Position numbers and translations under genes: made by a program. This document shows positions 13,151 through 49,066 of a stretch of 64,000 nt of DNA, in pieces. The notes beneath the pieces are model-generated. The model searched no databases. It was not told the DNA's origin and worked only from the letters and a program-made list of their open reading frames with translations. Position 1 is the first letter of the stretch. Each line of letters begins with the position of its first letter. The stretch covers positions 7,658 through 71,657 of the forward strand of contig CAZRNZ010000001.1 of assembly GCA_964601615.1 (NCBI GenBank). Reading direction: 5' to 3'. Source of the DNA: an uncultured Candidatus Saccharibacteria bacterium (GTDB lineage: Bacteria; Patescibacteriota; Minisyncoccia; Phycocordibacterales; UBA918).

Positions 13151-13186
13151 AAAAAGCAGCGTCGCCTTTCGGCGACGCTGCTTTTT
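13151..13186. terminator. Bidirectional Rho-independent terminator.
   Basis: aaaaagcagcgtcgcc-tttc-ggcgacgctgcttttt. Confidence 0.65.
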
Positions 13187-13199
13187 GTATTTTTCCTAA

Positions 13200-32598: not shown

Positions 32599-32646
32599 AA
32601 AATGGCCGGAAAGGAGCTTCGCTCCTTTCCGGCCATATTTTTTATT
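32599..32646. terminator. Bidirectional terminator.
   Basis: aatggccggaaaggagc-ttcg-ctcctttccggccat followed by atttttt. Confidence 0.65.
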
Positions 32647-34324
32647 TACTCAGATAATAATAAATTCTGCCAAGTCTGATTATTTCGTAATCGTATCTTT
32701 CACCAAGGTGTTCAAAAATTGGTTTTAACTTTTCGTCCCCTACTTCACCAATTGCTTCTTTAATTTCCAACCAAACATCACTCCAGTCTTTTGGTAACAA
32801 ATGATTAATATCATTAAGTTCAATTCTTTTTTCAGTAACCAATTCTTCCAAGTGACTCCAAATAGTCGAGCCAGACATCTTCCTTTCTTTAGCTATTTGG
32901 GCAATATTATTTTTCTCTTGCAAAAGTCTCTTGGTTATTTCGTAAGTACTTTCCTTCTGAATTCTTTCGTGAGGTTCACCAACTTTCACATCCGCAGGAT
33001 TTGGAATCTTCCCTCCTAAAGTCGTCACAAAAGCTTTGTGCATTTTCTCTATCTCAGATTCTTCCATATCAGTGAAAGCACTTTCTGCTTGTTCGCTACT
33101 GTCACGAAAAGCCTCGTCCTGTCTGGCAACTCTCGGATCAACACTAAGAGCATTAGGATTCATTCCTGAAAGTTTTAGTCCCTGTAGGGTTCGTACACGC
33201 GATAGTGCAACGTATCCCTGTCCATAAGCAAAAGCGCGAGAAAGATCTATCTCTGCTGCATCAAGCGACATTCCCTGACTCTTGTGAATTGTAATTGCCC
33301 AAGCTAGACGTAGTGGCACTTGATCAATAGAAGCCTTTATCTTTCCATCTTCTACTACTTCCCAACTCGTCGGCTCCATCTTGATAGTTCTGCCGTCGGC
33401 TAGTTTGATAATTGGCCAGCCTTCACGAGCATCAAAATCTATTACTCGCCCTAGTGTGCCGTTTACATAACCCTTCTCAAAGTTATTTTTAGTACACATC
33501 ACCATCGCTTCTTCTTTAAGGTCGAGCACTTCTGGTGAAAGACAAGTTCTTACTAACCCTTCAATTAATGGTTTGCCACCCATGCCGTGCATTTTAAAAC
33601 TTCTGACAGTACCTTTTAGACTGGCGAGCTTTTGATTATTAAAAGCATCCACATCAGCGTTGTGAGTATATAGTTTGGTTGGTTCAATATTTTCAAAACC
33701 AATATCAGTTTGTTCCTTGAGAAGATTGTAGTGATCTTCTTCAACCTGCATTTTACGCACTGACTGCAAAAGTCCCAGAAATAGTTCGTCTTCTTGACGG
33801 TGTTGTTCTGTCAGATAGCAAACTAAAGGTTTTGCTTCTTTCCAGGCAAGAGAATCAAAAGCATAATGCACAACCTCACCCATCCTAGTGATTGGTGGTA
33901 ACTGAAAAAAGTCACCTACAAAAACTACTTGCAAACCACCAAATGGTTGCTCGCTTTGCTTTACAGCTTTGGCAACTTTATTTACCATGTCGAGCAAGTT
34001 GCCACTCATCATCGAGATTTCATCGATAATAAGTACGTGAGCTTTTTTAATTCTGCGAGCAGTTTTTTCACTTGAAGAAATCTTGTCTAAGTCTTGCGCA
34101 GTCAATGTATCTCGTACACCAATTCCACTCCAAGAGTGAATCGTCATTCCACCAATATGCGTTGCTGCAATTCCAGTAGAAGCAGTAACAGCCACTGATA
34201 AACCAGCTGCTTCAAGCCAAGCTATGTATTGATTGATAACATGGGTTTTTCCAGCTCCAGGTTCTCCAGTTAGAAAAACATTTCCACCAGTTTTTAGAAT
34301 ATCGAGTGCTTGATTTTGAATCAT
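32642..34324 (-). CDS. RecD/PIF1-like ATP-dependent DNA helicase with a C-terminal HTH-like domain.
   Basis: Walker A 'LTGEPGAGKTHV', Walker B 'VLIIDEISM', and a UvrD_C-like region 'TIHKSQGMS'. C-terminal HTH-like 'NIAQIAKERKMSGSTIWSHLEEL'. Confidence 0.7.
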   Translation of the reverse strand: MIQNQALDILKTGGNVFLTGEPGAGKTHVINQYIAWLEAAGLSVAVTASTGIAATHIGGMTIHSWSGIGVRDTLTAQDLDKISSSEKTARRIKKAHVLIIDEISMMSGNLLDMVNKVAKAVKQSEQPFGGLQVVFVGDFFQLPPITRMGEVVHYAFDSLAWKEAKPLVCYLTEQHRQEDELFLGLLQSVRKMQVEEDHYNLLKEQTDIGFENIEPTKLYTHNADVDAFNNQKLASLKGTVRSFKMHGMGGKPLIEGLVRTCLSPEVLDLKEEAMVMCTKNNFEKGYVNGTLGRVIDFDAREGWPIIKLADGRTIKMEPTSWEVVEDGKIKASIDQVPLRLAWAITIHKSQGMSLDAAEIDLSRAFAYGQGYVALSRVRTLQGLKLSGMNPNALSVDPRVARQDEAFRDSSEQAESAFTDMEESEIEKMHKAFVTTLGGKIPNPADVKVGEPHERIQKESTYEITKRLLQEKNNIAQIAKERKMSGSTIWSHLEELVTEKRIELNDINHLLPKDWSDVWLEIKEAIGEVGDEKLKPIFEHLGERYDYEIIRLGRIYYYLSK

Positions 34325-37528: not shown

Positions 37529-39847
37529 TCAGTCCCTTTTAAATAATTCATTTATTTCCTCCCTGCTTCCTTCAATTATGTCCCTGTGGCTATCTTCATC
37601 AGCAAAATCTTTTGCAGATTCTTCCATCATCTCTAAAGCTCTATCAGCATGGTTATCACTCATTCTGTCTACGATTGTGGCTACATTGAAAGATGTCATG
37701 TCTAATACATACCTGCGTTCGGAATCTATAAAATTTTCGTTGATCGCTTGTTCAATTTCAGAATTGATGGAATATGTGTCAACTTCGTAGTCATCTGGAG
37801 CTATAAAATCAACATATTTAGTGTAATCAATATCTAAATGATCTTCTATATTATAAAGAATATGATCTTCATATAGCAGAGCAAGATGCTCTGCTATATG
37901 TTTATCTTGTATCTGTCTATCATAAAAGTATCTAAATAAATGCTCAAAGTCGAGATTGTCTATATTACTATTTAGATAAGCCCATAAAAAGTCAAATTTT
38001 TCTGGCACAAATTCTGTTTCAAAAAAAGATAATATGTAATAAAGCTTGTAGAAATCAATTAAGTTTAAGCTCTGTGACTCTTCTTTTTCCAGTGTGGTCA
38101 GACTAGATAAAACTTCAATTATTTTTTCACTGGCAAGATTATTTTCATCGCAGTGTATTAAACATACAAGCCAATTCCAATCTTTCTTAGCAAGTTTACT
38201 TTTATATAACGATTCAAATAAATTTTTCTGTAAATATTTAAATTCTAAATCAGTAATATAGTCATTTCTTTTTAAAGATTCTAAATATTGGATGGATTCA
38301 ATATTTGACAAGGCAAACAATAATTTATTTATCTCAGACTCGTTATTTTTAAAATAATTCTCAACTATATAGTCTCCAAGAGATGGATTAAAAAGAATGT
38401 ATTGAAATTCGTTTTTATCAAAAACTTTACTCCTACTTAGAAGTGAATCTAAAGCTACTTTAATAACGTAACTAAAGGAAGCTTCGTTATCAGAAGAAAA
38501 CTTATTGTAGTTACAAAAAATATCAAAAGAATTTCTTAGGTGTGATTCACTTATTTTTCCGTTATTAAATGCGACTAATAAAACCAGGGTTTTTGTACAC
38601 CTGTCTAACTTTTCGAAATAGTCCTCCCAAATATCACTCGGGTTATCAAGTTTTTCTTCTATGTAGGTAAAATAATCATTACTTTTTATTTCAGAAAACT
38701 CGACCCTCTCTTTTTCTAAAATGTATTCGATTATTCTTGGATTGAAATTACTATGATTAATAATCTTCCAATACTTTTTTTCAAGGTAAATTTGATCAAC
38801 ATAGTCAGGGTCTAATTCAGAAAAATACATATGTTTATACAATATGCGTGCTTTGTCTATCGGTCTTAGGTTTTCGATTTGTAGTACATATTCACTACCT
38901 TTAATATTTCCCTTCTCTAGGGAAGGGAATATTCCTCGTGCCTTATTTATGATGGTGGTGCGAGAATTTAATATAAATTTAAGTTTCTTGGATCGCGCTA
39001 CTCTGTCCATAAATAACATAATTTGGGAAGAATCATCTCCTTTGGAAATATCCATAAAATTTTCACCAAGAAAGTCATCAAAATAAAAAACTATGTTACA
39101 TTCTTGATTTGCTGACACAATATCTTCAGCTTCTTTGATGTTCCTGATTGAATAGAAAGAATATCCATTCTTTACATATGTAAATGCAAGCATATTTGAT
39201 AGTGTTGTCTTTCCAATGCCTGCTTCTCCAGTGATTACTACAACATTCTTTTCATCCAAACGTTTTCCAGCTTTATCAAAATCTTCAGTGTAAACAAATC
39301 GAACAGAATTTTTCTTTATATTCTCAAGTAGAAAATCACTTTGTCCTTGCAGTCCGCCAGTAAGCGCATTTGCAATTGTCTGCCCTAAAATCTTTTTCAG
39401 AAGAATCTCTGAATATATGTATAGCTGTGTATATTTTTTAACAATGTCAAAATTCTCTTCTTTTGAGAGAAAACTCTGTATATCATCGAACCCCCAAATA
39501 TCTTCCACGCCTTTAATGAAGCCGTTCATAATAGATAGCATCTCAGCTTTTTTTAGTGGAGTGACTTTACCAGAAGTCATAAAGATATACCTTTCAGGGT
39601 TCAGGGCTTTGACTTTGTTCGTTTCTAATTTTAATGCAGATATAATACGAACAGATGTCGCGTCAGGATAATGCTTCGCCTGTATTATTACACTTTGATT
39701 TTCACCCACCCAAAATCTTCCATCGATACCGCTGTCTTTTCCAACGGTAAAACGTTCAACTCGTTTACCATTCTCTTTCTCAATGATGTCAGCACACAAG
39801 TTTTCAAATTCTCTTGAATCAAGTCTTTTAAGATCGTATTCGGTCAT
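37529..39847 (-). CDS. Mrr-type PD-(D/E)xK nuclease domain fused to a NACHT-like STAND P-loop NTPase, with a C-terminal alpha-helical region (Avs/bNACHT-like antiviral protein).
   Basis: N-terminal 'GKDSGIDGRF...VIIQAKHY' Mrr_cat-like motifs. Walker A 'ITGEAGIGKTT'. Walker B 'IVFYFDDFLGE'. NACHT 'TSR'-like 'ILNSRTT'. Long helical C-terminus. Confidence 0.65.
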   Translation of the reverse strand: MTEYDLKRLDSREFENLCADIIEKENGKRVERFTVGKDSGIDGRFWVGENQSVIIQAKHYPDATSVRIISALKLETNKVKALNPERYIFMTSGKVTPLKKAEMLSIMNGFIKGVEDIWGFDDIQSFLSKEENFDIVKKYTQLYIYSEILLKKILGQTIANALTGGLQGQSDFLLENIKKNSVRFVYTEDFDKAGKRLDEKNVVVITGEAGIGKTTLSNMLAFTYVKNGYSFYSIRNIKEAEDIVSANQECNIVFYFDDFLGENFMDISKGDDSSQIMLFMDRVARSKKLKFILNSRTTIINKARGIFPSLEKGNIKGSEYVLQIENLRPIDKARILYKHMYFSELDPDYVDQIYLEKKYWKIINHSNFNPRIIEYILEKERVEFSEIKSNDYFTYIEEKLDNPSDIWEDYFEKLDRCTKTLVLLVAFNNGKISESHLRNSFDIFCNYNKFSSDNEASFSYVIKVALDSLLSRSKVFDKNEFQYILFNPSLGDYIVENYFKNNESEINKLLFALSNIESIQYLESLKRNDYITDLEFKYLQKNLFESLYKSKLAKKDWNWLVCLIHCDENNLASEKIIEVLSSLTTLEKEESQSLNLIDFYKLYYILSFFETEFVPEKFDFLWAYLNSNIDNLDFEHLFRYFYDRQIQDKHIAEHLALLYEDHILYNIEDHLDIDYTKYVDFIAPDDYEVDTYSINSEIEQAINENFIDSERRYVLDMTSFNVATIVDRMSDNHADRALEMMEESAKDFADEDSHRDIIEGSREEINELFKRD

Positions 39848-39878
39848 ATGTAATATGTTTTACAATTTGCCAATTTTA

Positions 39879-42092
39879 TTATGGCAATAATCCACAAACA
39901 TCAGTATATAATTTTTTTAACTCATCAATGCTCATATCAAGTATTGGTTCATACATAAAAGAATTGAGATGAATGTTCTCTGGAGTCATAATATTTACTC
40001 TTTCTAGAATAATAAGGGCATTTTTCAGACTATCATCTCTCACAGAATCATCTTTATATCTTTCAAATAATTCTCGCGTTTGGTTAACTGAAATTCGACT
40101 TCTATCCGTAATTTTAGCCAACATGTACTCCTCAGCTTTCTGTCGTATTGCTATAGCAAGAATAATTTTATTTTCCAGATTAAACTCCTCATCTCGTATC
40201 GTAGATGCTACTGTCAATAAATGCTGATAGACAATATCTGTATCAGCAATAGTTGCATCAAAGTCATCCCTGTCTATATGCTCTTTAAAGATAAGTTTCA
40301 AATCAGAAAATGTAATATTGCCTGTGTTTGTTTTAGAGTGTAGTAAACATGTTAAAGTGCTGAAATCATCACCGTGAGCAGTTGAGCTGAGAGATCTTCT
40401 GCTGTATTCGATTAGATTTCTGACAAAAGGAATCAAGGCCAAAATATGCTTTTTTGCATCGTCAGCTGTGAAATCTTTATCTTTATACTGTCCACTTTTT
40501 AGACAGTTCATCCAAGTTATAAAGGGTGGATTTTGATACACTTCTTTGATGAGACTTATCCCGTCAAGAGTTTTAATTGCGTGTTTCTTACAATCTCTTG
40601 AAAGACCTAGTCTGCTAGTTATTGTCCTGTAGAAGTCAAAATTGTGAGTAAGGATTATTGAGTAGAAATTACTACCTTTATTGAGGTCATTTAGATATTC
40701 AACAATTGCATATTTGTTTTTATAATCAAACGAATCAGCAATGTCATCAATAATAAAAACAGTTTCTTGATTTTGTAATTGTCTCGATTTAATTTCAAAA
40801 ATAACATTAAGTAAGTAAAAAGCCCGTCTCTCTCCCTGACTTAGGATATTATCTACCATTGTCTTACGTTCGACCGGCTTCCCTTGGAATGAAAAATCAA
40901 TAGCAGGTGTTTGATTGTTTAAAACAGCATCTGCTTTATTATTGATTGCTATCTTAAAAGGTACATTTGCAAATCGGTTTTCAAACTCACCAATAGCTGC
41001 TTCCCATGCTGATTGACCATCTTTAGCCTTTTGGATTATTTCCTCTAAATCTTTTTCTTTGCTCTTGTATAAATCGACCAATACCTCAATACTGGGTGAG
41101 ATCTGTTTCAAGAACCCAAACCATACCTCTCTTTTAAAATCATCGTAATTTACTAACTTTGCAAGAATCTGTTGATTCTTCTTTTGAGTGATAACTTTTT
41201 TAAAGGCCCTTAATGTTTTTGTTTTATCTAGCTTTTTCTCAATTTCTTGAAATAACTCGCGTAATTTTTCATCATTAAATATCTTTTCAACCTCTTCATT
41301 TAAAATTATTGAAAAATCTTCAGACTTTTGAATTTCACCATGTTTTTTCAGTAATAATTTATGTCCCGTGTTGAAATACTCATCTCCCTCTAGGGATGAA
41401 TTTAAAGATTTTGCCTCAGTGGTACCAAAGATGTTTTGGGCATTTTTACCAAAAAACTCAGAATCACTCACGAGTTCCTCATATTTCTCTATGTAGTTTT
41501 GTAATAGCTGAAAGTTCTCACTCAAAAAATCCCGTACCTCATTTTTTGGATCAAACACATCGTTGTATTTAAAATCAAAAAATTCTTTTGCAGATTTAAT
41601 CTCTGGCAGAGTTGTCTCAAAAATCTCAAATATGTTTTTCTTTTTTAGATATGAAAAAGCATCATTGATTTCTGCCTCGTAGTTACCACTACCAGTTATT
41701 TTTTTAAGTCCTGATAGTGTAGCTTTTTTTTGGGAGTCAATTTCTTTGTATATTGTTAGATATTCTTTTCGGGTTTCTTCATCTGCTAGAAGTGTAAGAA
41801 CCTCTTCAGAATTAAATGCTTTGTCGTTATAGGGTTCAATGACACAAATATTTTCTGGCTGCACAGGTATTCCGTCTTCTCGAAACACATCAAAGGTAGG
41901 CATTAACGAGGTATCCATTTGGTCGCATGGTTTACTTTTTGACGAAATATCTTTGAATGTTTTGGCAAAGGAGGTCTTCATTACTCCGTTGGCTGCATAA
42001 ATAGCGATAGTTTTACATTTTGAAAAATCAAACTCACCTTCAAGCTTTTTTATACCGTAACAGTTTTCAAATTTAATGGCTAATTTATTCAT
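39879..42092 (-). CDS. PrrC/RloC/AAA_13-like ABC-type ATPase with a degenerate Walker A, a long coiled-coil insert, and an uncharacterised C-terminal domain.
   Basis: N-terminal 'IAIYAANGVMKTSFAKTF' resembles the AAA_13 'IYGRNGSGKST' P-loop, with the second Gly replaced. Walker B/D-loop 'VFIIDDIADSFD' lies about 410 aa downstream. The intervening region is Lys/Glu-rich and helical. Confidence 0.55.
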   Translation of the reverse strand: MNKLAIKFENCYGIKKLEGEFDFSKCKTIAIYAANGVMKTSFAKTFKDISSKSKPCDQMDTSLMPTFDVFREDGIPVQPENICVIEPYNDKAFNSEEVLTLLADEETRKEYLTIYKEIDSQKKATLSGLKKITGSGNYEAEINDAFSYLKKKNIFEIFETTLPEIKSAKEFFDFKYNDVFDPKNEVRDFLSENFQLLQNYIEKYEELVSDSEFFGKNAQNIFGTTEAKSLNSSLEGDEYFNTGHKLLLKKHGEIQKSEDFSIILNEEVEKIFNDEKLRELFQEIEKKLDKTKTLRAFKKVITQKKNQQILAKLVNYDDFKREVWFGFLKQISPSIEVLVDLYKSKEKDLEEIIQKAKDGQSAWEAAIGEFENRFANVPFKIAINNKADAVLNNQTPAIDFSFQGKPVERKTMVDNILSQGERRAFYLLNVIFEIKSRQLQNQETVFIIDDIADSFDYKNKYAIVEYLNDLNKGSNFYSIILTHNFDFYRTITSRLGLSRDCKKHAIKTLDGISLIKEVYQNPPFITWMNCLKSGQYKDKDFTADDAKKHILALIPFVRNLIEYSRRSLSSTAHGDDFSTLTCLLHSKTNTGNITFSDLKLIFKEHIDRDDFDATIADTDIVYQHLLTVASTIRDEEFNLENKIILAIAIRQKAEEYMLAKITDRSRISVNQTRELFERYKDDSVRDDSLKNALIILERVNIMTPENIHLNSFMYEPILDMSIDELKKLYTDVCGLLP

Positions 42093-42098
42093 ACATTC

Positions 42099-43190
42099 TT
42101 ACCGCAAAAATCTAATCTGCAAATTTAGTTTCATTCGCTGTTCGCGGTTTTCTTCATAGATTTTTCCAAACCTATGACGAATAGTACTTGGTGTATCTAG
42201 TTTTGTATTGTGAAAGAGATAGTCCTCAAATTTGTCGCGGTTATAAAGATGGTAACAGACAATATCACCGTCTTCTTTCACAACAATGTAACCACCGTGC
42301 GCTTCAGTGTATCCATCCCAATCTTTACTCGGCATCATTCCCAGGGCGATACTTGATAGAAAACTTTTTATGTTCATCACTAACATTTCTTTAGTGAAAT
42401 CAATCTGCTCCATAAAGGTAGTATCGTTGGCAATCTTATCCATCAAATCCTTGATGGTAGTTGCTTCTCCCATGTAGTAGTGTTTCAGCATCTGAGCGAC
42501 AATCTTGGGGAATATCGAATCAATTTTTCGAAGGTTACGCCTAAAAATGTCGTTATCCATTCCTATATACTCAAGCTTTGCGCCCACATCATAGGTTAAT
42601 TTTGCAGCATCTCTAACAGACAAGTTGTTGCTACTTTCCACGGGTTTATTATCTTCAGTAGCAATTCTATATAAAAAATTAGTTGCTCCAGATGCATTAA
42701 GGAGAGTTGCGGGCGAACCGAGCATTGATTTGATACTAAAACCTAGCTCTGGAAATTCAGGAGACTTCTTATCATGTAAAACAATTGTTAAGTCGGCCTT
42801 TTTGGCACTCGACGCACGCATTTGGGTACAATAGAGATCGTTCATTGATTCTGTCGCACTTGCAACCTCAAATGTTGTTCCTTCTGAGTTTTTAATCTGT
42901 TCAAAAACTTTAGCAACGCCACCCTTGATTTTTTCCAAATTTACCACACCTATCTCCTCATTTTCACTTGAAATAACAACCAGTCCATCGTTTTTGGAAA
43001 TGTCGTACTCCCTCTTTCCAACTGCCTCCTGACGAATAATTTTCAAAACAATATGAAAATTATCTTCAAGTATTTTTAGATTTTTATCTGCTGTAAAAAC
43101 TTTTCCATCAGTCAAGATTTTAATAAAGGCATAGAATTCAGACCATTCTCCTTTATTGCCTTTGAGAGTTGTAGTAATTTTATTTGTCAT
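42099..43190 (-). CDS. Type II restriction endonuclease, HpaII-like (predicted CCGG specificity).
   Basis: N-terminal 'KGNKGEWSEFYAFIKIL' recalls the RE_HpaII family. Size is about 360 aa. It overlaps by 11 nt the upstream M.HpaII-like methyltransferase gene. Confidence 0.5.
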   Translation of the reverse strand: MTNKITTTLKGNKGEWSEFYAFIKILTDGKVFTADKNLKILEDNFHIVLKIIRQEAVGKREYDISKNDGLVVISSENEEIGVVNLEKIKGGVAKVFEQIKNSEGTTFEVASATESMNDLYCTQMRASSAKKADLTIVLHDKKSPEFPELGFSIKSMLGSPATLLNASGATNFLYRIATEDNKPVESSNNLSVRDAAKLTYDVGAKLEYIGMDNDIFRRNLRKIDSIFPKIVAQMLKHYYMGEATTIKDLMDKIANDTTFMEQIDFTKEMLVMNIKSFLSSIALGMMPSKDWDGYTEAHGGYIVVKEDGDIVCYHLYNRDKFEDYLFHNTKLDTPSTIRHRFGKIYEENREQRMKLNLQIRFLR

Positions 43191-44847
43191 ATTTTTCTAG
43201 GGTTTCAATTATTCTTTCCGCAACTGCTTGAATTGCTGGGACAGCAACAGAGTTACCAAGCTGTTTCATCGATTGAACACTTGATACCTCTTCTGGAAAC
43301 TCAAACCATTTGGGGAATCCTTGCATCTTCAAGCCTTCTTTAGGTCCAATCTGCACAACTTTTCCGTCCACACGATACGCGTCCCAATTTCTGCGGTCAT
43401 TAATACTACTGCCACGACCCCCAACACGAAGGGTAAAACCAACATCTCTATCGCATTTACCGCCAAATATATCTGACATGGTGTACTTCAACTCTTTTAC
43501 TGGTTCTGGAAATTCAAAAGGAATTGTATTATCACGAAAACCAACCATAAACAAACGCGGCCGATGTTGTGGAACTCCAAAATCTGAAGCTTTTACAATT
43601 TTCGCGTGGAATGAATACCCAAGATCTTCTTCGATAATTCGTTTAATTGTTTCAAAAGTTTTTCCGCCATCGTGAGCATATAATCCACGTACATTTTCAA
43701 GAAAAAACGCTTTTGGCTGCTTTTCTTTCATTATGCGAACTACATCAAAAAACAACGTGCCGCGCGCTTCTGCAAAACCTTTTTTGAAACCTGCTTGTGA
43801 GAATGGCTGACAAGGAAATCCGCCTGTGATTATGTCAAAATCAGGCATTTCTTTTTCGTTGACCTTTGTTATATCTCCGACAAAATTACCACTTCTGAAC
43901 ACGTCGGGTGAAACTTTGTAAAAATTATGTCTATATGTACTTCGTGCTGGTTCATCCCACTCCGAAACAAAAACGCATTCAGCGCCGACATTATGAAATG
44001 CAACATGAAAACCACCGATACCTGCAAAAAGGTCGATGAATTTATGCTTTGTTTTTGTCAGTGGTTCTGGTGCTTTATCGTTGACTCCTAGAAAATACAT
44101 ATGACGTGAATCGACAAGAAGGCCAAATAGTGACCCTTGATTACCTTCAGCAACATAATCAGTCGCTTTCGGTTCCATTTTTTGTAATTCGGCAAGAATA
44201 CTATGTACACCTTGTTCAGCAATAATAAGAAAATCTATGACGTTTATACCGATAATCTTACCTGCTTCAATAATTCGGGCAGCAACCTGTTTGTCTTCGT
44301 TACTCGGTGAAGGGTCACCAGATGGGTGATTGTGAATAACAATGACACTAGCAGCATGTTTCTCAAGTCCAGGAGCAAATACTTCTCGCGGATGGATAAT
44401 ACTTTTGTCCAAAGTGCCGATAGATACAATTTCTTTATGTACTAAAACACTTCGAGCGTTGAGGTAAAGACAAACCAAGTGTTCCTTTTTTGCTGTTTTG
44501 AGTTCAGGAACCAATATCGCAGCATCAATGGCAGACAACACCATATGTTCCTCTTCGCCGTTATGTTTGTCATACATACGTCGCGCCAGGGCAAACATTG
44601 AAGCAATTTGCAATGCTTTGACATCTCCTATTCCAGAAATTTGTTTCAAATCTTCCACGGTTGCGTCCATTAGATTATTACCAAATTTTCTGGATATTTT
44701 TTGAGCAAGTAACTTGACGTTTGTGCCTTTGATACCACTTCCAAGTAAAATAGCGAGTAGTTCACTGTCGGTGAGAGCATCGCTACCTTTTCCAAGAAAT
44801 TTCTCGCGTGGTCTGTCGTATTTTGGTGTATCTTTGAGTTTAGCCAT
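43180..44847 (-). CDS. Fusion protein: an N-terminal RadC-like JAB/MPN domain joined to a C-terminal DNA (cytosine-5)-methyltransferase (M.HpaII/Dcm-like).
   Basis: Residues 1-250 carry the HhH 'LSDSELLAILLGSG' and JAB motif 'IVIHNHPSGDPSPSNED'. Residues ~270-555 carry motif I 'FIDLFAGIGGF', motif IV 'GGFPCQPFSQAG', motif VI 'FFLENVRGL', and 'GNSVAVPAIQA'. The reading frame is continuous across both parts. Confidence 0.8.
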   Translation of the reverse strand: MAKLKDTPKYDRPREKFLGKGSDALTDSELLAILLGSGIKGTNVKLLAQKISRKFGNNLMDATVEDLKQISGIGDVKALQIASMFALARRMYDKHNGEEEHMVLSAIDAAILVPELKTAKKEHLVCLYLNARSVLVHKEIVSIGTLDKSIIHPREVFAPGLEKHAASVIVIHNHPSGDPSPSNEDKQVAARIIEAGKIIGINVIDFLIIAEQGVHSILAELQKMEPKATDYVAEGNQGSLFGLLVDSRHMYFLGVNDKAPEPLTKTKHKFIDLFAGIGGFHVAFHNVGAECVFVSEWDEPARSTYRHNFYKVSPDVFRSGNFVGDITKVNEKEMPDFDIITGGFPCQPFSQAGFKKGFAEARGTLFFDVVRIMKEKQPKAFFLENVRGLYAHDGGKTFETIKRIIEEDLGYSFHAKIVKASDFGVPQHRPRLFMVGFRDNTIPFEFPEPVKELKYTMSDIFGGKCDRDVGFTLRVGGRGSSINDRRNWDAYRVDGKVVQIGPKEGLKMQGFPKWFEFPEEVSSVQSMKQLGNSVAVPAIQAVAERIIETLEKYDK

Positions 44848-44854: not shown

Positions 44855-45079
44855 TTACTTCAAAAGTTTGTCACTTGTGACTCCAAGCGCTATAGCAATG
44901 CGTTCGATGGTAGCAAGTGTCGGATTGCCTTTTCCAGCTTCAAGATTGCTAATGAAAGCTCTGTCGCACTTCAACGCTCTGCATATATCGCCTTGAGACA
45001 TACGCTTATCCTCTCGAACACGTTTCATATTTTTCGCTAGTCGTTTTGGTGCTTGTTGCATATCATTTCCACAGTGCAA
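44855..45079 (-). CDS. XRE-family HTH transcriptional regulator (controller-protein-like). The start is probably the ATG at 45061 rather than the TTG at 45079.
   Basis: HTH_3 motif 'RMSQGDICRALKCDRAFISNLEAGKGNPTLATIERIAIALGV'. It ends 7 nt before the methyltransferase gene. Confidence 0.7.
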   Translation of the reverse strand: MHCGNDMQQAPKRLAKNMKRVREDKRMSQGDICRALKCDRAFISNLEAGKGNPTLATIERIAIALGVTSDKLLK

Positions 45080-45315: not shown

Positions 45316-45927
45316 TTAGTTGGTCGGACTGATTTGCTCCGACCCTTCTCCAGAGATATATTTTAGATCAGAAAACACATCCTCAAACCCTGTGGCTTTT
45401 AAAATTTGCTTCGCTTCAATTTTAGTATCTCTTTTATCATCTAGATCAACACTTACTCTACATGCTTCTATCATTCCAGATATGTAAGCATTATCTAATT
45501 TGTGTTGTTTAGCTCCCGCAACCATAAGTGCCAAATACCAATCGTATACTGGTAAGCCACTTATATATTTTTCAGTTGGAGCAATGTATGTCCTTACATT
45601 ATTCAGTACTTTACCCTCAAAAATTACCGTAAAATCTTCTTTTACGATGTAACCACCGTTACCCCTACCTTCAGCACTGTCTAGTTTTATTATTTCGTCA
45701 CCACTATCGTCAATTTCAAATAGAACTCCATAAACAATATCAGACTCGTTGCACGTTTTTAGTAAGGTCGCTTTGGCTGAATCATCTTTACTTTCTTTGA
45801 TAAGTATTACCTTATAGCCCATAACAATTGCTTTGCCGAGAGGTTCCGCACTTGTACACCGTTTTGGTGCCTTGAGCCGTTCTGTCAGCATGTTTGAACC
45901 GTATGCGAAGTATTTCATATAGGCCAT
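45316..45927 (-). CDS. Gamma-glutamyl cyclotransferase / AIG2-like (GGCT fold) protein.
   Basis: N-terminal 'YFAYGSNM' hallmark of the GGCT/AIG2 fold, plus a downstream acidic catalytic-region candidate. Confidence 0.55.
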   Translation of the reverse strand: MAYMKYFAYGSNMLTERLKAPKRCTSAEPLGKAIVMGYKVILIKESKDDSAKATLLKTCNESDIVYGVLFEIDDSGDEIIKLDSAEGRGNGGYIVKEDFTVIFEGKVLNNVRTYIAPTEKYISGLPVYDWYLALMVAGAKQHKLDNAYISGMIEACRVSVDLDDKRDTKIEAKQILKATGFEDVFSDLKYISGEGSEQISPTN

Positions 45928-45954
45928 TATCTCTCAAAAGTGACAAAAATGACA

Positions 45955-47010
45955 CTAATTTGCAACATCACCAAATAACGAGCCTTGGTTTTTGTTCTTC
46001 TCATCGAATTTCTTTTTTTCTTTTTTTAGTTCCAAATCCTTTTTGTGTTGAACTAAATTATCATTATGGGATGTGACTCTCTTTACATACAACCTTGGTT
46101 TGCCAAATTTACCATTTACATAGTCGTAGAAGCGACTAATGTCAAAAACTACACCTATATTGTCTCCACTAGTAAATGAGATTTCTTGATTCAAGATTTG
46201 ATTTTTATATTCATCATCTTGCATATAAAAAAATATATTTTCACCATCTTCGATAATGATTTGATTGTCTTCATCGAAGACATCAGAGCCATAATAGACA
46301 CCCTTCCACGGCACACCCCTGCCATATTGCTGTTGTTTTTCGATAAATGGTTGTGATAATTGTATATTTCCAGATAAATCAATCTTTAGAAACTCTTTTT
46401 CTTTCGGAATTTCTTCTATATAGTTCTTAAAATCATCTCTTTTTATTTCAGTTTGAAATATCCTTTGTTTTTCTTCAGATATTGTCGGTTTAATACTAAG
46501 AATATCTCTGTCTGCCATTACAGACTGATAAAAAATATTTTTCTGTTTTTTAGGATAATACGAATCGCATATCTCTTCTACCTTTTGTATCTGTTCATCG
46601 CTGAGATTAAAACTTTTACATTTTTCTACTATTCCTAAAGTATTAAGGTCTGATGTAGTGTCGTTCAGTCTTATCTGACTACTAAACAATAATGCTGCCA
46701 ACAAGGTAGTAACTGCCAAAGCTACACCCTGATTATCATTTAAAAATTTAACTACTGTATGCTCTTTAAAAGAACCTTCTTCTGGAGGTAACGTTAAAAT
46801 CTCAAAATGCTCGTCTGGACACAATGTCTTTATCAAATACGATATGATCTCCACTTGTGCCAAGGCACAAGTGTTTCTGACGTGAAAATTTATTGCATGA
46901 ACATCATCACTGGTGAAGTTATAGTGTAGTTCAAGGGTTATTTCTTTTTTAGTCAAATCCGTTCCCATTTTTAACTTTTTGTATTGATATGAATCATTTC
47001 GTTTCTGCAC
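45955..47010 (-). CDS. Hypothetical soluble protein (351 aa). Start is uncertain: GTG at 47010, or ATG at 46968.
   Basis: No recognisable motifs. It is AT-rich and overlaps or abuts the upstream membrane-protein gene. Confidence 0.45.
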   Translation of the reverse strand: MQKRNDSYQYKKLKMGTDLTKKEITLELHYNFTSDDVHAINFHVRNTCALAQVEIISYLIKTLCPDEHFEILTLPPEEGSFKEHTVVKFLNDNQGVALAVTTLLAALLFSSQIRLNDTTSDLNTLGIVEKCKSFNLSDEQIQKVEEICDSYYPKKQKNIFYQSVMADRDILSIKPTISEEKQRIFQTEIKRDDFKNYIEEIPKEKEFLKIDLSGNIQLSQPFIEKQQQYGRGVPWKGVYYGSDVFDEDNQIIIEDGENIFFYMQDDEYKNQILNQEISFTSGDNIGVVFDISRFYDYVNGKFGKPRLYVKRVTSHNDNLVQHKKDLELKKEKKKFDEKNKNQGSLFGDVAN

Positions 47011-47443
47011 TAGAAATCATAAATAACCAATTCATCACTATTATTAACAAACTGACCGCTGGCAAATACGCAAAGCCACCTAATAAGAATGGGTATAAGT
47101 ACGCGCTTATGCTACCAATCCACTGATTATTCTCATCCGTAGCCAGGGCAAGAAAGAACACAACATAGGTGAAGCAGATAATTGTGGACACCAATATCCA
47201 GGTTAAATAATCTAACTGTCGACTAGATAATTTGTATTTTTGCCACTCAAAAACCAAATAGTTGGTAACGGCAAAAAATATAATCATGCCGGACTGCAAA
47301 ATAATCCCACTAGTCTCCTTAGGCTCAGTTCCAGCAAAACTAAATATTGCTTCAATTACTACTGGGAAAAACACAGCCAGCATTACCACTAATTGTATTT
47401 TCTTTTCGACGCTCTTTATCTTTTCCTTGACTGTTAATTCCAT
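46994..47443 (-). CDS. Small four-TM membrane protein (149 aa).
   Basis: Four hydrophobic helices (LVVMLAVFFPVVIEAIF, IIFFAVTNYLVF, ILVSTIICFTYVVFFLAL, LLGGFAYLPAVSLLIIVMNWLF). Confidence 0.5.
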   Translation of the reverse strand: MELTVKEKIKSVEKKIQLVVMLAVFFPVVIEAIFSFAGTEPKETSGIILQSGMIIFFAVTNYLVFEWQKYKLSSRQLDYLTWILVSTIICFTYVVFFLALATDENNQWIGSISAYLYPFLLGGFAYLPAVSLLIIVMNWLFMISSAETK

Positions 47444-47980: not shown

Positions 47981-48055
47981 TGGTGACCCCACGGGAAATC
48001 GAATCCCGATTTCTGCCGTGAGAGGGCAGCGTCCTAACCGTTAGACGATGGGGCC
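47981..48055 (-). tRNA. tRNA-Glu (anticodon CUC), with an encoded CCA end.
   Basis: The minus-strand sequence GGCCCCATCGTCTAACGGTTAGGACGCTGCCCTCTCACGGCAGAAATCGGGATTCGATTTCCCGTGGGGTCACCA folds into a cloverleaf (7-bp acceptor stem, anticodon loop CUCUCAC, T-loop TTCGATT). Confidence 0.8.
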
Positions 48056-48060
48056 AAAAT

Positions 48061-48137
48061 GTACAAGACCATTTCGTCGTTAGAGGGATGGTTGATTTGG
48101 GAAATCAACCATCCGACACCTTATAGACGATAGGGCC
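48061..48137 (-). pseudogene. Degenerate copy of the tRNA-Glu 5' half, followed by a perfect 13-bp-stem palindrome. It is not a foldable tRNA.
   Basis: The minus-strand sequence GGCCCTATCGTCTATAAGG matches tRNA-Glu GGCCCCATCGTCTAACGG at 14 of the first 15 positions and then diverges. A perfect 13-bp-stem palindrome (ggatggttgattt-ggg-aaatcaaccatcc) sits at 48086-48114. No T-loop or acceptor pairing is present. Confidence 0.3.
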
Positions 48138-48195
48138 AGTGGGCATATTTATAACAAATATTCTTGGTTTCGGGAAGAGATAGGGATTTAAAATA

Positions 48196-48226
48196 AACAG
48201 GCCGGAGCGAAGCTCCGGCCTGTTTT
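48196..48226. terminator. Bidirectional terminator.
   Basis: aaacaggccggagc-gaag-ctccggcctgtttt. Confidence 0.6.
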
Positions 48227-48240
48227 AAATCTAATCCAGA

Positions 48241-48993
48241 TTATCTGTTTGTAGAAAATTCTTCTACATCACCACAAGTGATAACATTTCTGTTGTTGTC
48301 ATTTATGAATCCAACACAGATGCTGAAGAAATAATCTTCATTTCTCTCCAGGTTGCTTACAGTTGCTGTGAAGTTATTGTTTCCATTAACTTGTCCGCTA
48401 ATTCTCACTTTCTCTAGACGATCAGTACGAGTACGAACATTGCTGTAGCTTGTGAAGTCATCTTCTACTTCTTCAACAAGATATTCGTCTGTTCCGTAAA
48501 CGAAGAATACTTCCCCGTTTCTGAAATCGTTCATATCTACTCTACCGCGTAGTTGAGCAGAATTACGACTGATACTGGTGGCATTATTTGTGAAAGCTTC
48601 CGGTTCATCATCACGGTAATCTCTGTCGTTGTAGCGATCGTTGTTTCTACTGTTTCTACCACTTCTTGGTTCACCTACAACCTGATTGTATTTTGTATTG
48701 TAGTTGTAATCGTAATTTGATTGGTAGTAATTTGAATTTCTTCTTTGGTCATTAATTTGAGCCTGAAGTTGAATAATCAGTTGTCTCAAATATGATTCCA
48801 ATTGAGCATTGCTCATTACAGTTGTGTTGCTCTGGTAGGTATTGAAGCTACTTGGAACATAGTAATAATTTGTTTGTGCACTCACATTATCCGTTGGCAC
48901 AGCTACTAAAGTAGCTGCAAAAACAACGAAAAATATAGCAATAAAACTCTTTTTCATATAAAGGTAAAGTACACCGAAATATGAAAAAGTCAA
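48241..48993 (-). CDS. Secreted low-complexity (Asn/Tyr/Arg-rich) hypothetical protein.
   Basis: Signal peptide KKSFIAIFFVVFAATLVAV. Region rich in N, Y, Q, R and D. Confidence 0.45.
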   Translation of the reverse strand: MTFSYFGVLYLYMKKSFIAIFFVVFAATLVAVPTDNVSAQTNYYYVPSSFNTYQSNTTVMSNAQLESYLRQLIIQLQAQINDQRRNSNYYQSNYDYNYNTKYNQVVGEPRSGRNSRNNDRYNDRDYRDDEPEAFTNNATSISRNSAQLRGRVDMNDFRNGEVFFVYGTDEYLVEEVEDDFTSYSNVRTRTDRLEKVRISGQVNGNNNFTATVSNLERNEDYFFSICVGFINDNNRNVITCGDVEEFSTNR

Positions 48994-49066
48994 TGTCTGC
49001 TATAAGGTATTTTCTCTTAAAATATATTCTCAGGAAACCGGTCCTCGCTACGCTGCGGGGCTTCCT

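What the first reader, a model, noticed from the sequence alone, without database searches (positions are those of the whole stretch)
39879..42092. PrrC/RloC-like ABC ATPase with a degenerate Walker A, next to an R-M pair and 5.9 kb from tRNA-Glu
What the sequence shows. The N-terminus reads 'IAIYAANGVMKTSFAKTF'. It aligns to the AAA_13/PrrC P-loop 'IYGRNGSGKST', but the first Gly is Ala and the second Gly is Met; the Lys-Thr pair is kept. A canonical Walker B/D-loop, 'VFIIDDIADSFD', lies about 410 residues downstream. The region between them is Lys/Glu-rich and helical, which fits a Rad50/RloC-like coiled-coil insertion. I found no CxxC zinc hook. About 230 C-terminal residues are uncharacterised and contain an 'R-x3-E ... 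N ... H' arrangement ('FVRNLIEYSRR...HSKTN').

Established knowledge. PrrC and RloC are R-M-linked suicide tRNases. As I recall, RloC cleaves tRNA-Glu when expressed in E. coli. The only tRNA gene in this window is tRNA-Glu(CUC), immediately flanking the island.

Inference. A degenerate P-loop suggests a regulatory, nucleotide-sensing role rather than a hydrolytic one. This is a candidate latent anticodon-nuclease-like effector. It might instead be a non-catalytic partner of the adjacent STAND protein.
Basis: partly seen in the sequence, partly recalled or inferred. Interest (0 to 1): 0.6.

Follow-up and report, generated by a model that had tools for sequence, protein, structure and literature searches.

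The report
Restriction-linked ABC ATPase, function unknown
This gene encodes a member of a widespread, uncharacterised protein family (PADLOC candidate PDC-S46) that combines a Rad50/SMC-like ATPase carrying an unusual but strictly conserved ATP-binding loop with a C-terminal domain that matches nothing known; close relatives sit at the end of, or inside, many unrelated restriction-modification operons, so it is probably a back-up anti-phage module rather than a true PrrC/RloC anticodon nuclease.

Summary
The protein matches PADLOC's untested candidate PDC-S46 over its full length (E = 9e-228). It has no significant Pfam, PrrC or RloC match.

An AlphaFold model places the N-terminal 515 residues as an SMC/Rad50-class ABC head, split by a 280-residue Lys/Glu-rich helical insert. 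The odd Walker A (A-x-N-G-x-M-K-T/S) is not decay. It is conserved in 78-79 of 79 homologues from many phyla, alongside intact signature, Walker B (DD), D-loop and H-loop motifs.

The C-terminal 220 residues form a confident all-alpha domain with about 20 invariant polar residues, including R558-x3-E562 and H585-x-K587. The domain has no Pfam, PDB or viral-structure match, and profile comparison with genuine PrrC nuclease domains finds nothing.

Relatives at 47-86% identity follow or sit inside unrelated R-M operons (HpaII, DpnII, EcoRI-methylase/HNH, ResIII, type I) in 13 of 16 contexts. One of these operons also carries a true PrrC.

tRNA-Glu marks an island insertion hot spot and says nothing about substrate.

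Verdict: a real, R-M-linked ABC-ATPase effector that follows PrrC/RloC logic but is not a member of that family. Its biochemical activity is unknown.

The parts
39879..42092 (-). PDC-S46 family gene, 737 aa: ABC ATPase head + helical insert + C-terminal domain with no detected relative
   Evidence: ORF. PADLOC PDC-S46, E = 9.1e-228, residues 1-734 against profile positions 1-717 of 719. More than 6,783 homologues.
41970..41999 (-). Deviant Walker A, Y32-A-A-N-G-V-M-K-T-S41 (family consensus YAPNGxMK[TS]S)
   Evidence: Coordinates verified. N35, G36, K39 and S41 in 79/79 sequences; M38 in 78/79; A33 in 75/79. Aligns to the PrrC P-loop 'YAFNxTGKT' with M38 opposite the conserved Gly.
40968..41807 (-). 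Helical insert of about 280 residues (96-375) between the two halves of the ABC head; Lys/Glu-rich; contains the conserved FGTT(Q/N/E)A motif, possibly a Q-loop
   Evidence: AlphaFold secondary structure. K+E = 27%. Position 226 is Q in 44, N in 20 and E in 12 of 79 sequences. Only 15 of 280 positions are at least 97% conserved.
40824..40844 (-). ABC signature motif L417-S-Q-G-E-R-R423
   Evidence: S418, G420 and E421 in 79/79; R423 in 78/79. NCBIfam RecF C-terminal region, residues 412-471, E = 2.7e-6.
40725..40760 (-). Walker B (hhhhDD) and D-loop: V445-F-I-I-D-D-I-A-D-S-F-D456
   Evidence: D449, D450 and D456 in 79/79; D453 in 78/79.
40641..40649 (-). H-loop / switch histidine, T482-H483-N484
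   Evidence: H483 and N484 in 79/79.
39882..40541 (-). C-terminal all-alpha domain (residues 518-737), specific to this family; putative effector
   Evidence: AlphaFold pLDDT 87, pTM 0.87. No Pfam hit. No PDB sequence hit. Best Foldseek E = 0.48 against PDB and 0.31 against BFVD. A profile search of 1.84 billion representatives gave 1,176 hits, and the top 150 all share this architecture or are fragments of it.
40407..40421 (-). R558-N-L-I-E562 motif (R-x3-E, reminiscent of the PrrC/RloC triad; also RNxxE[Y/F], which resembles a HEPN RNxxxH motif with the His replaced)
   Evidence: R558 in 79/79, N559 in 77/79, E562 in 69/79 plus 5 Asp, position 563 Y or F in 79/79.
40332..40340 (-). H585-S-K587 motif at the end of the following helix
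   Evidence: H585 in 79/79, K587 in 76/79. The spacing from E562 is 14-24 residues across the family.
40131..40145 (-). Second R-x3-E motif, R650-Q-K-A-E654
   Evidence: R650 and E654 in 79/79. No internal-repeat signal between the two halves of the domain.
39936..39986 (-). Most conserved stretch of the protein, T703-P-E-N-I-H708-L-N710-S-F-M-Y-E715-P-I-L-D719; predicted to be a loop
   Evidence: P704, H708, N710, E715, P716 and D719 in 79/79. pLDDT is below 50 at residues 709-712 despite this conservation.
42099..43190 (-). HpaII-type restriction endonuclease; its stop codon lies 6 nt before the PDC-S46 start
   Evidence: Pfam RE_HpaII, E = 1.4e-106. Junction sequence.
43180..44847 (-). RadC-JAB domain fused to a C5 cytosine DNA methyltransferase (the cognate methylase)
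   Evidence: Pfam UPF0758_N, RadC and DNA_methylase.
44855..45079 (-). HTH controller (C) protein at the head of the operon
   Evidence: PADLOC Control_protein, E = 1.6e-12. Promoter-like site at 45111-45082 on the minus strand, 10 of 12 matches.
37529..39847 (-). Mrr nuclease + nSTAND3 NTPase (PADLOC candidate PDC-S73), 31 nt downstream on the same strand; probably the last gene of the operon
   Evidence: Pfam and PADLOC. Terminator-like hairpin at 37209-37180 on the minus strand. The same order is seen in L041 and L100.
47981..48055 (-). tRNA-Glu(CUC), a chromosomal landmark at the island boundary
   Evidence: ARAGORN. The same tRNA follows the Mur ligase gene in L006 and L007, and a different R-M + PDC-S46 island follows it there.

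Best explanation
The gene encodes an intact member of the PDC-S46 family. This is a mobile, single-gene module made of three parts: (i) an SMC/Rad50-class ABC ATPase head with a family-specific P-loop (A-x-N-G-x-M-K-T/S) and a DD Walker B; (ii) a helical insert of about 280 residues; (iii) a family-specific all-alpha C-terminal domain of about 220 residues, whose roughly 20 invariant polar residues look like an enzyme or ligand site.

In this window it is the fourth gene of a five-gene operon: C protein, RadC/M.HpaII, R.HpaII, PDC-S46, Mrr-nSTAND3. The operon lies in a defence island next to tRNA-Glu.

The most likely function is second-line anti-phage defence coupled to restriction-modification, following the logic of PrrC and RloC. 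The ABC head would act as a nucleotide-dependent switch or sensor. It would keep the C-terminal effector silent until infection, DNA damage or interference with restriction is detected. The effector would then damage a host or phage macromolecule and abort the infection. The best guess for the target is RNA, attacked by metal-independent Arg/Glu/His chemistry.

Because nearly identical copies follow unrelated R-M enzymes, the trigger is more likely generic than a specific contact with one restriction enzyme. Candidates are DNA ends, restriction products or a broad anti-restriction factor.

Shown here: the anatomy, fold and motif conservation, the operon position and the R-M linkage. Inferred: ATP-driven dimerisation, the effector role of the C-terminal domain, the RNA target and the trigger.
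For: Family identity: PADLOC PDC-S46, E = 9e-228, full length. PDCs are candidates defined by embedding in type I R-M, BREX or DISARM systems (Payne et al., bioRxiv 10.1101/2024.01.29.577857).

Fold: Foldseek matches to SMC, Rad50 and cohesin heads, AriA and the 4-component retron Ec83 entry 9e8z_F.

Motifs: Walker A Lys/Thr, signature, Walker B, D-loop and H-loop are invariant in 79 sequences from Patescibacteria, Bacteroidota, Pseudomonadota, Cyanobacteria, Bacillota and other phyla.

C-terminal domain: confidently folded, and 27 of its 222 positions are at least 97% conserved at a median 40% overall identity.

R-M linkage: in the clade at 47% identity or more, 13 of 16 distinct contexts are R-M operons of unrelated kinds, with the gene 1-16 nt from, or overlapping, its neighbour. 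Among 120 immediate neighbours in 75 genome loci, the commonest Pfam families are N6_Mtase, Methylase_S, HsdM_N, DUF2130, ResIII and Eco57I. In some type I operons the gene occupies the PrrC slot between hsdS and hsdR (L079). In one operon it coexists with a genuine PrrC (L002/L015). Fic or RhuM-Fic genes accompany it, as described for PrrC/RloC-like proteins (L029, L107; PMC3710099).

Operon signals in the window: 6-nt and 31-nt gaps, a promoter-like site upstream of the C gene and a terminator-like site after the STAND gene.
Against: There is no experimental evidence that PDC-S46 defends against phage; no paper in the library mentions it.

The C-terminal domain shows no detectable similarity to any nuclease, HEPN or PrrC domain by sequence profile or by Foldseek. 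The R-x3-E...H resemblance is therefore only a pattern, and its spacing differs from PrrC and RloC.

A Met in place of the Gly that precedes the P-loop Lys may impair nucleotide binding.

In the more distant clade (37-43% identity), most copies stand alone with gaps of 100-500 nt and no adjacent R-M gene.

Co-location with defence genes could reflect shared mobility rather than shared function.
Confidence: 0.5

Rival explanations
1. It is a true, highly diverged anticodon nuclease of the PrrC/RloC lineage. On this reading the C-terminal domain is a diverged HEPN-type ACNase whose R558/E562/H585 correspond to PrrC R320/E324/H356, and the protein cleaves tRNA anticodon loops.
For: The overall architecture is the same (ABC head, then a C-terminal helical domain) and so is the genomic niche inside type I R-M operons. 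R-x3-E followed by H-x-K at the end of the next helix is conserved: R558 and H585 in 79/79. PrrC shows 'FRxLLEK...YSHSK' with R314, E318 and H351 invariant, and RloC was originally linked to PrrC by 'manual adjustment' of just such a motif (PMC2610378). The P-loop regions align, and both begin 'YA.N'.
Against: No AAA_13, PrrC or RloC model matches the window protein. In the one family member that does hit AAA_13 (P0119), the match covers only the ATPase C-lobe. hhalign of the C-terminal profile against the PrrC profile gives E = 0.28-0.43, and the motifs are not aligned even in a permissive run. E...H spacing is 14-24 residues against 31 and 36-52. The domain is twice the size of the PrrC nuclease domain and carries a further invariant block (TPENIHxN...E..D) that PrrC lacks. 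It coexists with a real PrrC in one operon, which argues against redundancy.
Confidence: 0.2
2. The effector acts on DNA or on nucleotides rather than RNA. The C-terminal domain would be a metal-dependent phosphohydrolase or nuclease of an unrecognised helical fold. The Rad50-like head would sense DNA ends made by the neighbouring restriction enzyme, and the protein would degrade phage or host DNA or deplete nucleotides.
For: The invariant residues include several potential metal ligands: H585, H708, E654, E705, E715, D719 and N710. The only recurring, though non-significant, fold hits are HD-domain phosphohydrolases: 3mzo at E = 0.48, and two BFVD HD-like proteins at E = 1.8-3.6. The gene very often sits directly after a DNA endonuclease gene: HpaII, DpnII, AlwI, ResIII, GmrSD_N/HNH, DUF2130, RmuC or RE_endonuc. 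The head resembles the DNA-binding Rad50/SMC ATPases.
Against: No fold hit is significant. There is no conserved 'HD' doublet. No nuclease family profile matches.
Confidence: 0.15
3. It is a non-toxic accessory or regulator of restriction systems, or of the mobile cassette that carries them. Examples would be an SMC-like DNA-binding ATPase that assists or modulates restriction, or one that stabilises the cassette, with the C-terminal domain serving as a binding module rather than an enzyme.
For: The position at the operon tail is consistent, and translational coupling to R-M genes is tight. The deviant P-loop could mean slow or absent hydrolysis. No catalytic fold is recognised in the C-terminal domain.
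Against: The partners are unrelated in fold and mechanism (type I, II and III-like enzymes, HNH, PD-(D/E)xK), so a specific physical accessory role is hard to picture. More than half of the distant homologues have no R-M neighbour and look autonomous. Copies occur alone on conjugative plasmids. About 20 invariant polar residues, including two His, two Arg and several acidic side chains, are more typical of an active site than of a binding surface.
Confidence: 0.12
4. It is the non-catalytic sensor partner of the adjacent Mrr-nSTAND3 protein, forming a two-gene system.
For: The two genes are 31 nt apart on the same strand and share a low G+C content (0.31-0.33, against about 0.39 in the flanks). 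The same gene order recurs in a Flavobacterium MAG (L041) and in a 75%-identical relative (L100). The STAND proteins are 34% identical and the PDC-S46 proteins 39%, so the two have diverged to a similar degree.
Against: Only 3 of roughly 90 contexts show the pair. PADLOC treats both as single-gene candidates. The STAND protein already carries its own Mrr nuclease effector.
Confidence: 0.03

Closest known systems
PADLOC phage defence candidate PDC-S46 (Payne, Hughes, Fineran & Jackson 2024, 'guilt-by-embedding')
   Same: Full-length HMM match, E = 9e-228. The window protein is a member of this family. The family was defined because members are embedded in type I R-M, BREX or DISARM loci, which I re-observed independently.
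   Different: Nothing differs; this is the family. It is only a catalogued candidate, with no domain description, test or mechanism in the papers I could read.
PrrC anticodon nuclease (Pfam AAA_13 / PADLOC PrrC)
   Same: ABC-type NTPase head followed by a helical C-terminal effector. The Walker B is DD and the first P-loop Gly is replaced by Ala in the PrrC clade I aligned. The gene is embedded in type I R-M operons. An R-x3-E...H-x-K-like pattern is present.
   Different: The protein is twice as long, because of a 280-residue insert and a larger C-terminal domain. Met replaces the Gly before the P-loop Lys. No HMM or profile match covers the nuclease domain. E...H spacing is 14-24 residues, not 31. 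The gene is linked to R-M systems of any type, not only type Ic, and can coexist with PrrC in one operon.
RloC (Rad50-like, zinc-hook anticodon nuclease)
   Same: A Rad50/SMC-like head with a helical insertion between the Walker A and signature motifs. It works as a single-gene module that is only sometimes R-M-linked. It is plausibly autoregulated by its own ATPase and by DNA signals.
   Different: There is no CxxC zinc hook (4 of 79 sequences). The insert is a bundle of short helices rather than a long coiled coil. There is no AAA_13 or RloC match. The motif spacing falls outside RloC's X36-52 range.
ABC-ATPase defence sensors with separate nuclease partners (PARIS AriA/AriB, Septu and retron PtuA/PtuB, Gabija GajA, AbiLi/AbiLii)
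   Same: Structural similarity of the head to AriA (8v45_D, E = 1.7e-3) and to the 4-component retron Ec83 entry 9e8z_F (E = 2e-3). Weak AbiLi HMM hits, E = 1.6e-4 to 1.7e-7. The concept of an ABC head acting as an infection sensor.
   Different: Those systems use a separate or fused Toprim or HNH nuclease. PDC-S46 has no conserved partner gene and carries its own unrelated C-terminal domain.

Membership tests
PDC-S46 (PADLOC-DB v2 candidate family) | Full-length match to the family HMM PDLC05023 | tested here: met
   E = 9.1e-228, residues 1-734 against profile positions 1-717 of 719. Homologues from L002, L009 and L012 score equally well.
PDC-S46 (PADLOC-DB v2 candidate family) | Occurrence embedded in, or adjacent to, multi-gene defence systems (the basis for the family's definition) | tested here: met
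   Window: last but one gene of an HpaII R-M operon. Relatives lie inside type I R-M operons and after DpnII, ResIII and HNH R-M systems. In E. coli the gene sits next to a DEAD/DEAH helicase cluster and a pglX remnant.
ABC ATPase superfamily, SMC/Rad50/RecF class | ABC head fold with signature (LSGG-like), Walker B, D-loop and H-loop, split by an insertion after Walker A | tested here: met
   Foldseek probability 1.0, E = 2e-6 to 1e-3, to SMC, Rad50 and cohesin heads. Weak SMC_N hits in 35 of 36 members. RecF signature region, E = 2.7e-6. Motifs invariant.
ABC ATPase superfamily, SMC/Rad50/RecF class | Canonical Walker A, GxxGxGK[ST] | tested here: not met
   The sequence is A33-A-N-G-V-M38-K-T. 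Gly1 is replaced by Ala and Gly3 by Met, family-wide. Whether nucleotide is still bound cannot be tested here.
PrrC (anticodon nuclease; Pfam PF13166 AAA_13; PADLOC PrrC) | Match to the family profile | tested here: not met
   No AAA_13 or PrrC hit at E up to 10 (Pfam) or up to 1 (PADLOC). A true PrrC from L002 scores 2.6e-100 with the same tool.
PrrC (anticodon nuclease; Pfam PF13166 AAA_13; PADLOC PrrC) | C-terminal ACNase domain with the Arg320-Glu324-His356 triad (R-x3-E-x31-H) | tested here: inconclusive
   An R558-x3-E562-x22-H585 pattern is conserved. However, profile-profile alignment to 27 PrrC sequences finds no similarity in this domain.
PrrC (anticodon nuclease; Pfam PF13166 AAA_13; PADLOC PrrC) | Gene embedded in a type I R-M locus that silences it | tested here: inconclusive
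   Many relatives are embedded in type I loci. The window copy follows a type II system, and silencing cannot be tested in silico.
PrrC (anticodon nuclease; Pfam PF13166 AAA_13; PADLOC PrrC) | tRNA anticodon-loop cleavage activity | not testable with these tools
   Needs expression followed by tRNA analysis.
RloC | Long Rad50-like coiled coil with a CxxC zinc hook | tested here: not met
   CxxC occurs in 4 of 79 sequences and is not conserved. The insert is made of 11 helices, of which 10 are short to medium and the longest has 42 residues.
RloC | Arg-X3-Glu-X36-52-His motif (PMC2610378) | tested here: not met
   The spacing is 14-24 residues across the family and 22 in the window protein.
HEPN superfamily | Rx4-6H motif on a four-helix bundle | tested here: not met
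   The sequence is R558-N-L-I-E-Y/F563, so the position where His is expected holds Tyr or Phe in 79/79. No HEPN Pfam model matches. No HEPN structure appears among significant Foldseek hits; Roquin ROQ/HEPN 4qil scores only E = 0.7. Foldseek is weak on small helical bundles, so this does not exclude a diverged HEPN.

The most novel reading that the evidence does not exclude
PDC-S46 is a new class of restriction-coupled abortive-infection enzyme. On this reading, a Rad50-like ABC head uses a non-canonical, Met-containing P-loop to sense a generic signal of ongoing or failing restriction, such as DNA ends or an anti-restriction factor, whichever R-M system it rides behind. The head then switches on a nuclease domain with no detected relative (most likely an RNase using Arg/Glu/His chemistry).
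Probability: 0.25. Interest if true: 0.75.

Novelty: new variant of a known kind. Interest (0 to 1): 0.5.

Why it matters
If the reading holds, this family would be a common second layer of immunity that bolts onto any restriction-modification system. It has more than 6,700 clusters at 90% identity, occurs in at least 567 species-level genomes across many phyla, and includes 6 intact copies among 5,426 complete E. coli genomes. It is especially visible in the tiny genomes of Patescibacteria/Saccharibacteria-like organisms, where every gene is costly.

Three open points would become testable:
- How back-up defences are coupled to restriction without a specific protein contact.
- Whether an ABC ATPase can work with Met in place of the near-universal Gly before the P-loop Lys.
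- What the conserved C-terminal domain, which matches no known fold, does.

Practically, the family's HMM already flags these genes in PADLOC output. A mechanism would turn a label into an annotation.

Tried and rejected
1. Pfam, NCBIfam and PHROGs scans of the protein and of 36 relatives gave only weak SMC_N and RecF hits to the ATPase, plus phrog_38705 of unknown function. Nothing matched the C-terminal domain.
2. PDB sequence searches with the protein and with the C-terminal profile found nothing.
4. hhalign of the full-length and C-terminal profiles against a 27-sequence PrrC alignment, including a permissive run restricted to the PrrC C-terminus, aligned only the P-loop region.
5. A test for an internal repeat in the C-terminal domain, prompted by its two R-x3-E motifs, was negative.
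6. An exhaustive profile search with the C-terminal domain, looking for other architectures, returned only this architecture or fragments among the top 150. Weaker hits are not listed, so other fusions cannot be excluded.
7. A search for an att-like direct repeat of the tRNA-Glu 3' end at the far island boundary found none.
8. I tried to check whether the family equals the 'APECO1_4465' ABC-HEPN group of Anantharaman et al. 2013. The supplement is not held and I could not locate the gene. Rarity in phages (1 of 50,697 records; 11 of 2.9 million viral contigs) argues against that prophage-borne group.
9. The Krishnan et al. 2020 ABC-ATPase classification is not in the library.
10. The V. cholerae type I-embedded genes (TgvAB) are GmrSD-like and unrelated.


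Full report
**1. The observation**

The ORF 39879-42092 (minus strand) is intact and encodes 737 aa.
- the P-loop-like 'YAANGVMKTS' at residues 32-41
- 'VFIIDDIADSFD' at 445-456
- 'FVRNLIEYSRR' at 556
- 'HSKTN' at 585

The stretch between the Walker motifs is 27% Lys+Glu and is predicted helical. tRNA-Glu(CUC) at 47981-48055 is the only tRNA in the window. Upstream lie an HpaII-type endonuclease (42099-43190) and a RadC-JAB/C5-methyltransferase fusion (43180-44847). Downstream lies an Mrr + nSTAND3 protein (37529-39847).

**2. What the protein is**

Pfam gives no hit below E = 0.01; the best is SMC_N at 0.046. PADLOC-DB matches its candidate family PDC-S46 over the full length (E = 9.1e-228) and matches the neighbour to PDC-S73 (E = 6e-184).

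PDCs are 145 untested 'phage defence candidates' that Payne et al. derived from genes embedded in type I R-M, BREX and DISARM loci (bioRxiv 10.1101/2024.01.29.577857). I found no paper that mentions PDC-S46 itself or tests it.

The family is large. More than 6,783 clusters at 90% identity match. At least 567 species-level genomes carry it, spanning Patescibacteria/Saccharibacteria, Bacteroidota, Pseudomonadota, Cyanobacteria, Bacillota, Verrucomicrobiota and one Micrarchaeota MAG. It occurs on 27 plasmids, annotated 'hypothetical', 'AAA family ATPase' or 'phage infection protein'. Six of 5,426 complete E. coli genomes hold an intact copy, and 40 more hold only the first 369 nt; in the one such locus I inspected (APEC O2-211) an IS1 element lies directly after the remnant. 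It is rare in viruses: 1 of 50,697 phage records and 11 of 2.9 million viral contigs.

**3. Anatomy**

An AlphaFold2 model built on 36 homologues has mean pLDDT 82. Its best PDB matches are SMC, Rad50 and cohesin heads, followed by AriA of PARIS and the 4-component retron Ec83 entry 9e8z_F (Foldseek probability 1.0, E = 2e-6 to 2e-3). Residues 1-95 and 376-515 therefore form an SMC/Rad50-class ABC head, split by a helical insert of about 280 residues.

I aligned 79 sequences: the window protein plus 78 genomic homologues, at 38-85% identity (median 40%). The ATPase motifs are essentially invariant:
- N35, G36, K39 and S41 in 79/79
- M38 in 78/79, A33 in 75/79, and T40 in 69 with Ser in the other 10
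- signature S418, G420 and E421 in 79/79
- Walker B D449 and D450 in 79/79
- D-loop D453 and D456
- H-loop H483 and N484 in 79/79

The unusual Walker A (Ala for the first Gly, Met for the Gly before Lys) is thus a selected family signature and not a sign of decay. Profile alignment to PrrC places M38 opposite PrrC's conserved Gly. Whether nucleotide is bound or hydrolysed cannot be decided in silico. Conservation of the signature and D-loop, which act only in the ATP-sandwiched dimer, suggests that a nucleotide-dependent cycle persists (inference). CxxC occurs in only 4 of 79 sequences, so there is no zinc hook.

**4. The C-terminal domain**

Modelled alone, residues 518-737 fold confidently (pLDDT 87, pTM 0.87) into an all-alpha domain. 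It has 27 positions that are at least 97% conserved, including R558, N559, T581, H585, K642, R650, E654, Q671, T672 and the block T703-P-E-N-I-H708-x-N710...E715-P...D719. That is a density of invariant polar residues typical of an active or ligand-binding site (inference).

Nothing known matches it:
- Pfam: no hit.
- PDB by sequence: no hit.
- Foldseek against PDB: best E = 0.48, an HD-domain protein.
- Foldseek against BFVD: best E = 0.31.

**5. The PrrC/RloC question**

A genuine PrrC lies in the same operon as a PDC-S46 homologue in locus L002 (PADLOC PrrC, E = 2.6e-100). I used it to build a 27-sequence PrrC alignment in which R314, E318 and H351 are invariant. These correspond to EcoPrrC R320, E324 and H356, the triad confirmed in PMC2610378.

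hhalign of PDC-S46 against PrrC aligns only the P-loop region (E = 3e-4, probability 39%). The C-terminal domains do not align (E = 0.28-0.43), even with permissive settings, and the motifs are not brought into register.

PDC-S46 does conserve R558-x3-E562 and H585-x-K587 at the end of the next helix. The E...H spacing is 14-24 residues, against 31 in PrrC and 36-52 in RloC. The HEPN 'Rx4-6H' histidine position holds Tyr or Phe. No PrrC structure is in the PDB, so a fold comparison could not be made.

Conclusion: the architecture and genomic niche resemble PrrC and RloC, but membership is not supported, and the catalytic resemblance is only a pattern.

**6. Genomic context: the strongest result**

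In the window, the endonuclease stop codon is 6 nt from the PDC-S46 start, and the STAND gene starts 31 nt after its stop. A promoter-like site lies upstream of the C-protein gene (45111-45082), and a strong terminator-like hairpin follows the STAND gene (37209-37180). A five-gene operon is likely (inference).

Close relatives sit in the same tail position behind quite different R-M systems:

| Identity to window protein | Gene order |
|---|---|
| 84-86% | EcoRI_methylase, GmrSD_N/HNH, DUF2130, [S46] |
| 83-85% | C, N6_N4 methylase, ResIII, [S46] |
| 75% | EcoRI_methylase, GmrSD_N/HNH, [S46], Mrr-nSTAND3 |
| 58% | C, Dam, DpnII, methylase, [S46] |
| 47-65% | hsdM, [S46], hsdS, (PrrC or Fic), hsdR |

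In total, 13 of 16 distinct contexts in this clade are R-M operons. A gammaproteobacterial homologue of only 38% identity again follows a C5-methylase/R.HpaII pair with a 1-nt gap (L085).

Among 120 immediate neighbours in 75 genome loci, the commonest Pfam families are N6_Mtase (7), Methylase_S (7), HsdM_N (6), DUF2130 (4), ResIII (3) and Eco57I (3). About one third of loci have an R-M or nuclease gene adjacent, and no single partner is conserved. In the distant clade, most copies stand alone behind gaps of 100-500 nt or sit on conjugative plasmids.

The module therefore works, or at least travels, on its own, but it is recruited again and again to the 3' end or the interior of R-M operons whatever their enzymology.

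**7. tRNA-Glu and the STAND neighbour**

A related genome (L006/L007) has the same order of transpeptidase, Mur ligase and tRNA-Glu(CUC). There the tRNA is followed by a serine recombinase and a different R-M + PDC-S46 island. The tRNAs are about 90% identical, but the flanks cannot be aligned. The tRNA is thus an island insertion landmark and gives no hint about substrate.

The Mrr-nSTAND3 gene follows PDC-S46 in only three contexts (window, L041, L100). That is an occasional pairing, not an obligate system.

**8. Most likely mechanism**

The following steps are inferred unless marked otherwise.
- The ABC head dimerises on nucleotide and acts as a switch.
- The insert or the head senses an infection-linked signal.
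- The C-terminal domain is the effector.

Because near-identical proteins follow unrelated R-M enzymes (shown), a specific masking contact such as PrrC-EcoprrI is unlikely. A generic signal fits better, which is closer to the RloC or PARIS logic. Candidates are DNA ends or restriction products, or a broad anti-restriction factor.

An RNA target with Arg/Glu/His chemistry is the best single guess, at roughly one chance in four. A metal-dependent activity on DNA or nucleotides and a non-catalytic accessory role remain open.

**9. Novelty and score**

The family is already catalogued as PDC-S46, but nothing is known about it. Three points appear to be new:
- the P-loop variant is conserved across the whole family;
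- the C-terminal domain has no detectable relatives;
- the gene behaves as a tail module that is indifferent to R-M type and can coexist with PrrC.

I class it as a new variant of a known kind (R-M-linked ABC-ATPase effectors) and give it an interest score of 0.5.

Noticed in passing
window 43180-44847 (-): The cognate methylase of the HpaII-type system is a fusion. A UPF0758_N + RadC-like JAB domain (residues 5-217) precedes the C5 cytosine methyltransferase (residues 269-555). In other loci (L002, L012) RadC is a separate gene near methylases.
   Followed up: no
window 37529-39847 (-); L041:10316-12637; L100:4798-7116: An Mrr_cat + nSTAND3 protein (PADLOC candidate PDC-S73, E = 6e-184) lies directly downstream of PDC-S46. 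The same gene order recurs in a Flavobacterium MAG (proteins 34% identical) and in a 75%-identical relative's contig. This is an occasional two-gene tail.
   Followed up: partly
window 45316-47443 (-): Three further island genes lie between tRNA-Glu and the R-M operon. They are a 149-aa protein with hydrophobic stretches (46994-47443), which overlaps by 17 nt a 351-aa protein matching PADLOC candidate PDC-S42 (45955-47010, E = 8e-24), and a 203-aa GGACT/AIG2-like protein (45316-45927). Together with PDC-S46 and PDC-S73, this gives three untested defence candidates in about 10 kb.
   Followed up: no
L002 (= L015) 6420-15538: One type I R-M operon carries both a PDC-S46 homologue (between hsdM and hsdS) and a genuine PrrC (between hsdS and hsdR). 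L107 has hsdM, S46, hsdS, a 147-aa gene, Fic and hsdR.
   Followed up: partly
L013:4594-6018, L024:10169-11605, L027:6700-7986, L076:6722-8008, L101:2842-4293, L102:2492-3910; L069:1541-2992: A DUF2130 protein (420-480 aa) is the commonest single tight neighbour of PDC-S46, with gaps ranging from a 38-nt overlap to 14 nt. It lies upstream in five of the six loci and downstream in L024. An RmuC-family protein takes the same place in L069, and an RE_endonuc protein does so on a Providencia plasmid (L094).
   Followed up: partly
L095 (E. coli E8, NZ_CP104526.1) and L096 (APEC O2-211): In E. coli the homologue (WP_096983205.1, 'AAA family ATPase') follows a cluster of large hypothetical proteins and a DEAD/DEAH helicase, and precedes a pglX remnant. 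Forty of the 46 E. coli genomes with a match retain only the first 369 nt; in APEC O2-211, the one such locus inspected, an IS1 element lies directly after the remnant.
   Followed up: partly
window 38000-42000: G+C content drops to 0.31-0.33 across PDC-S46 and the STAND gene. The adjacent R-M genes are at 0.38-0.40 and the window overall is at about 0.39. This suggests the two tail genes were acquired separately from the R-M pair.
   Followed up: no
window 47981-50356 and L006:746-3712: The junction of the Mur ligase gene and tRNA-Glu(CUC) is conserved in a related genome. There the tRNA is followed by a serine recombinase and a different defence island, so this is a likely integration hot spot. 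No att-like repeat was found in the window.
   Followed up: partly
L017 (OZ245768.1, Patescibacteria chromosome): Around an intact PDC-S46 gene, the type I R-M genes appear only as short ORF fragments (HsdM 72 and 100 aa; HsdR 93 and 135 aa). The system may be decayed, or the organism may use a different genetic code or the sequence may be masked.
   Followed up: no
window 32642-34324 (-): A Pif1-like helicase with a C-terminal HTH_40 domain lies just outside the island. It gives weak PADLOC hits to PDC-S68 and RecD-like components.
   Followed up: no
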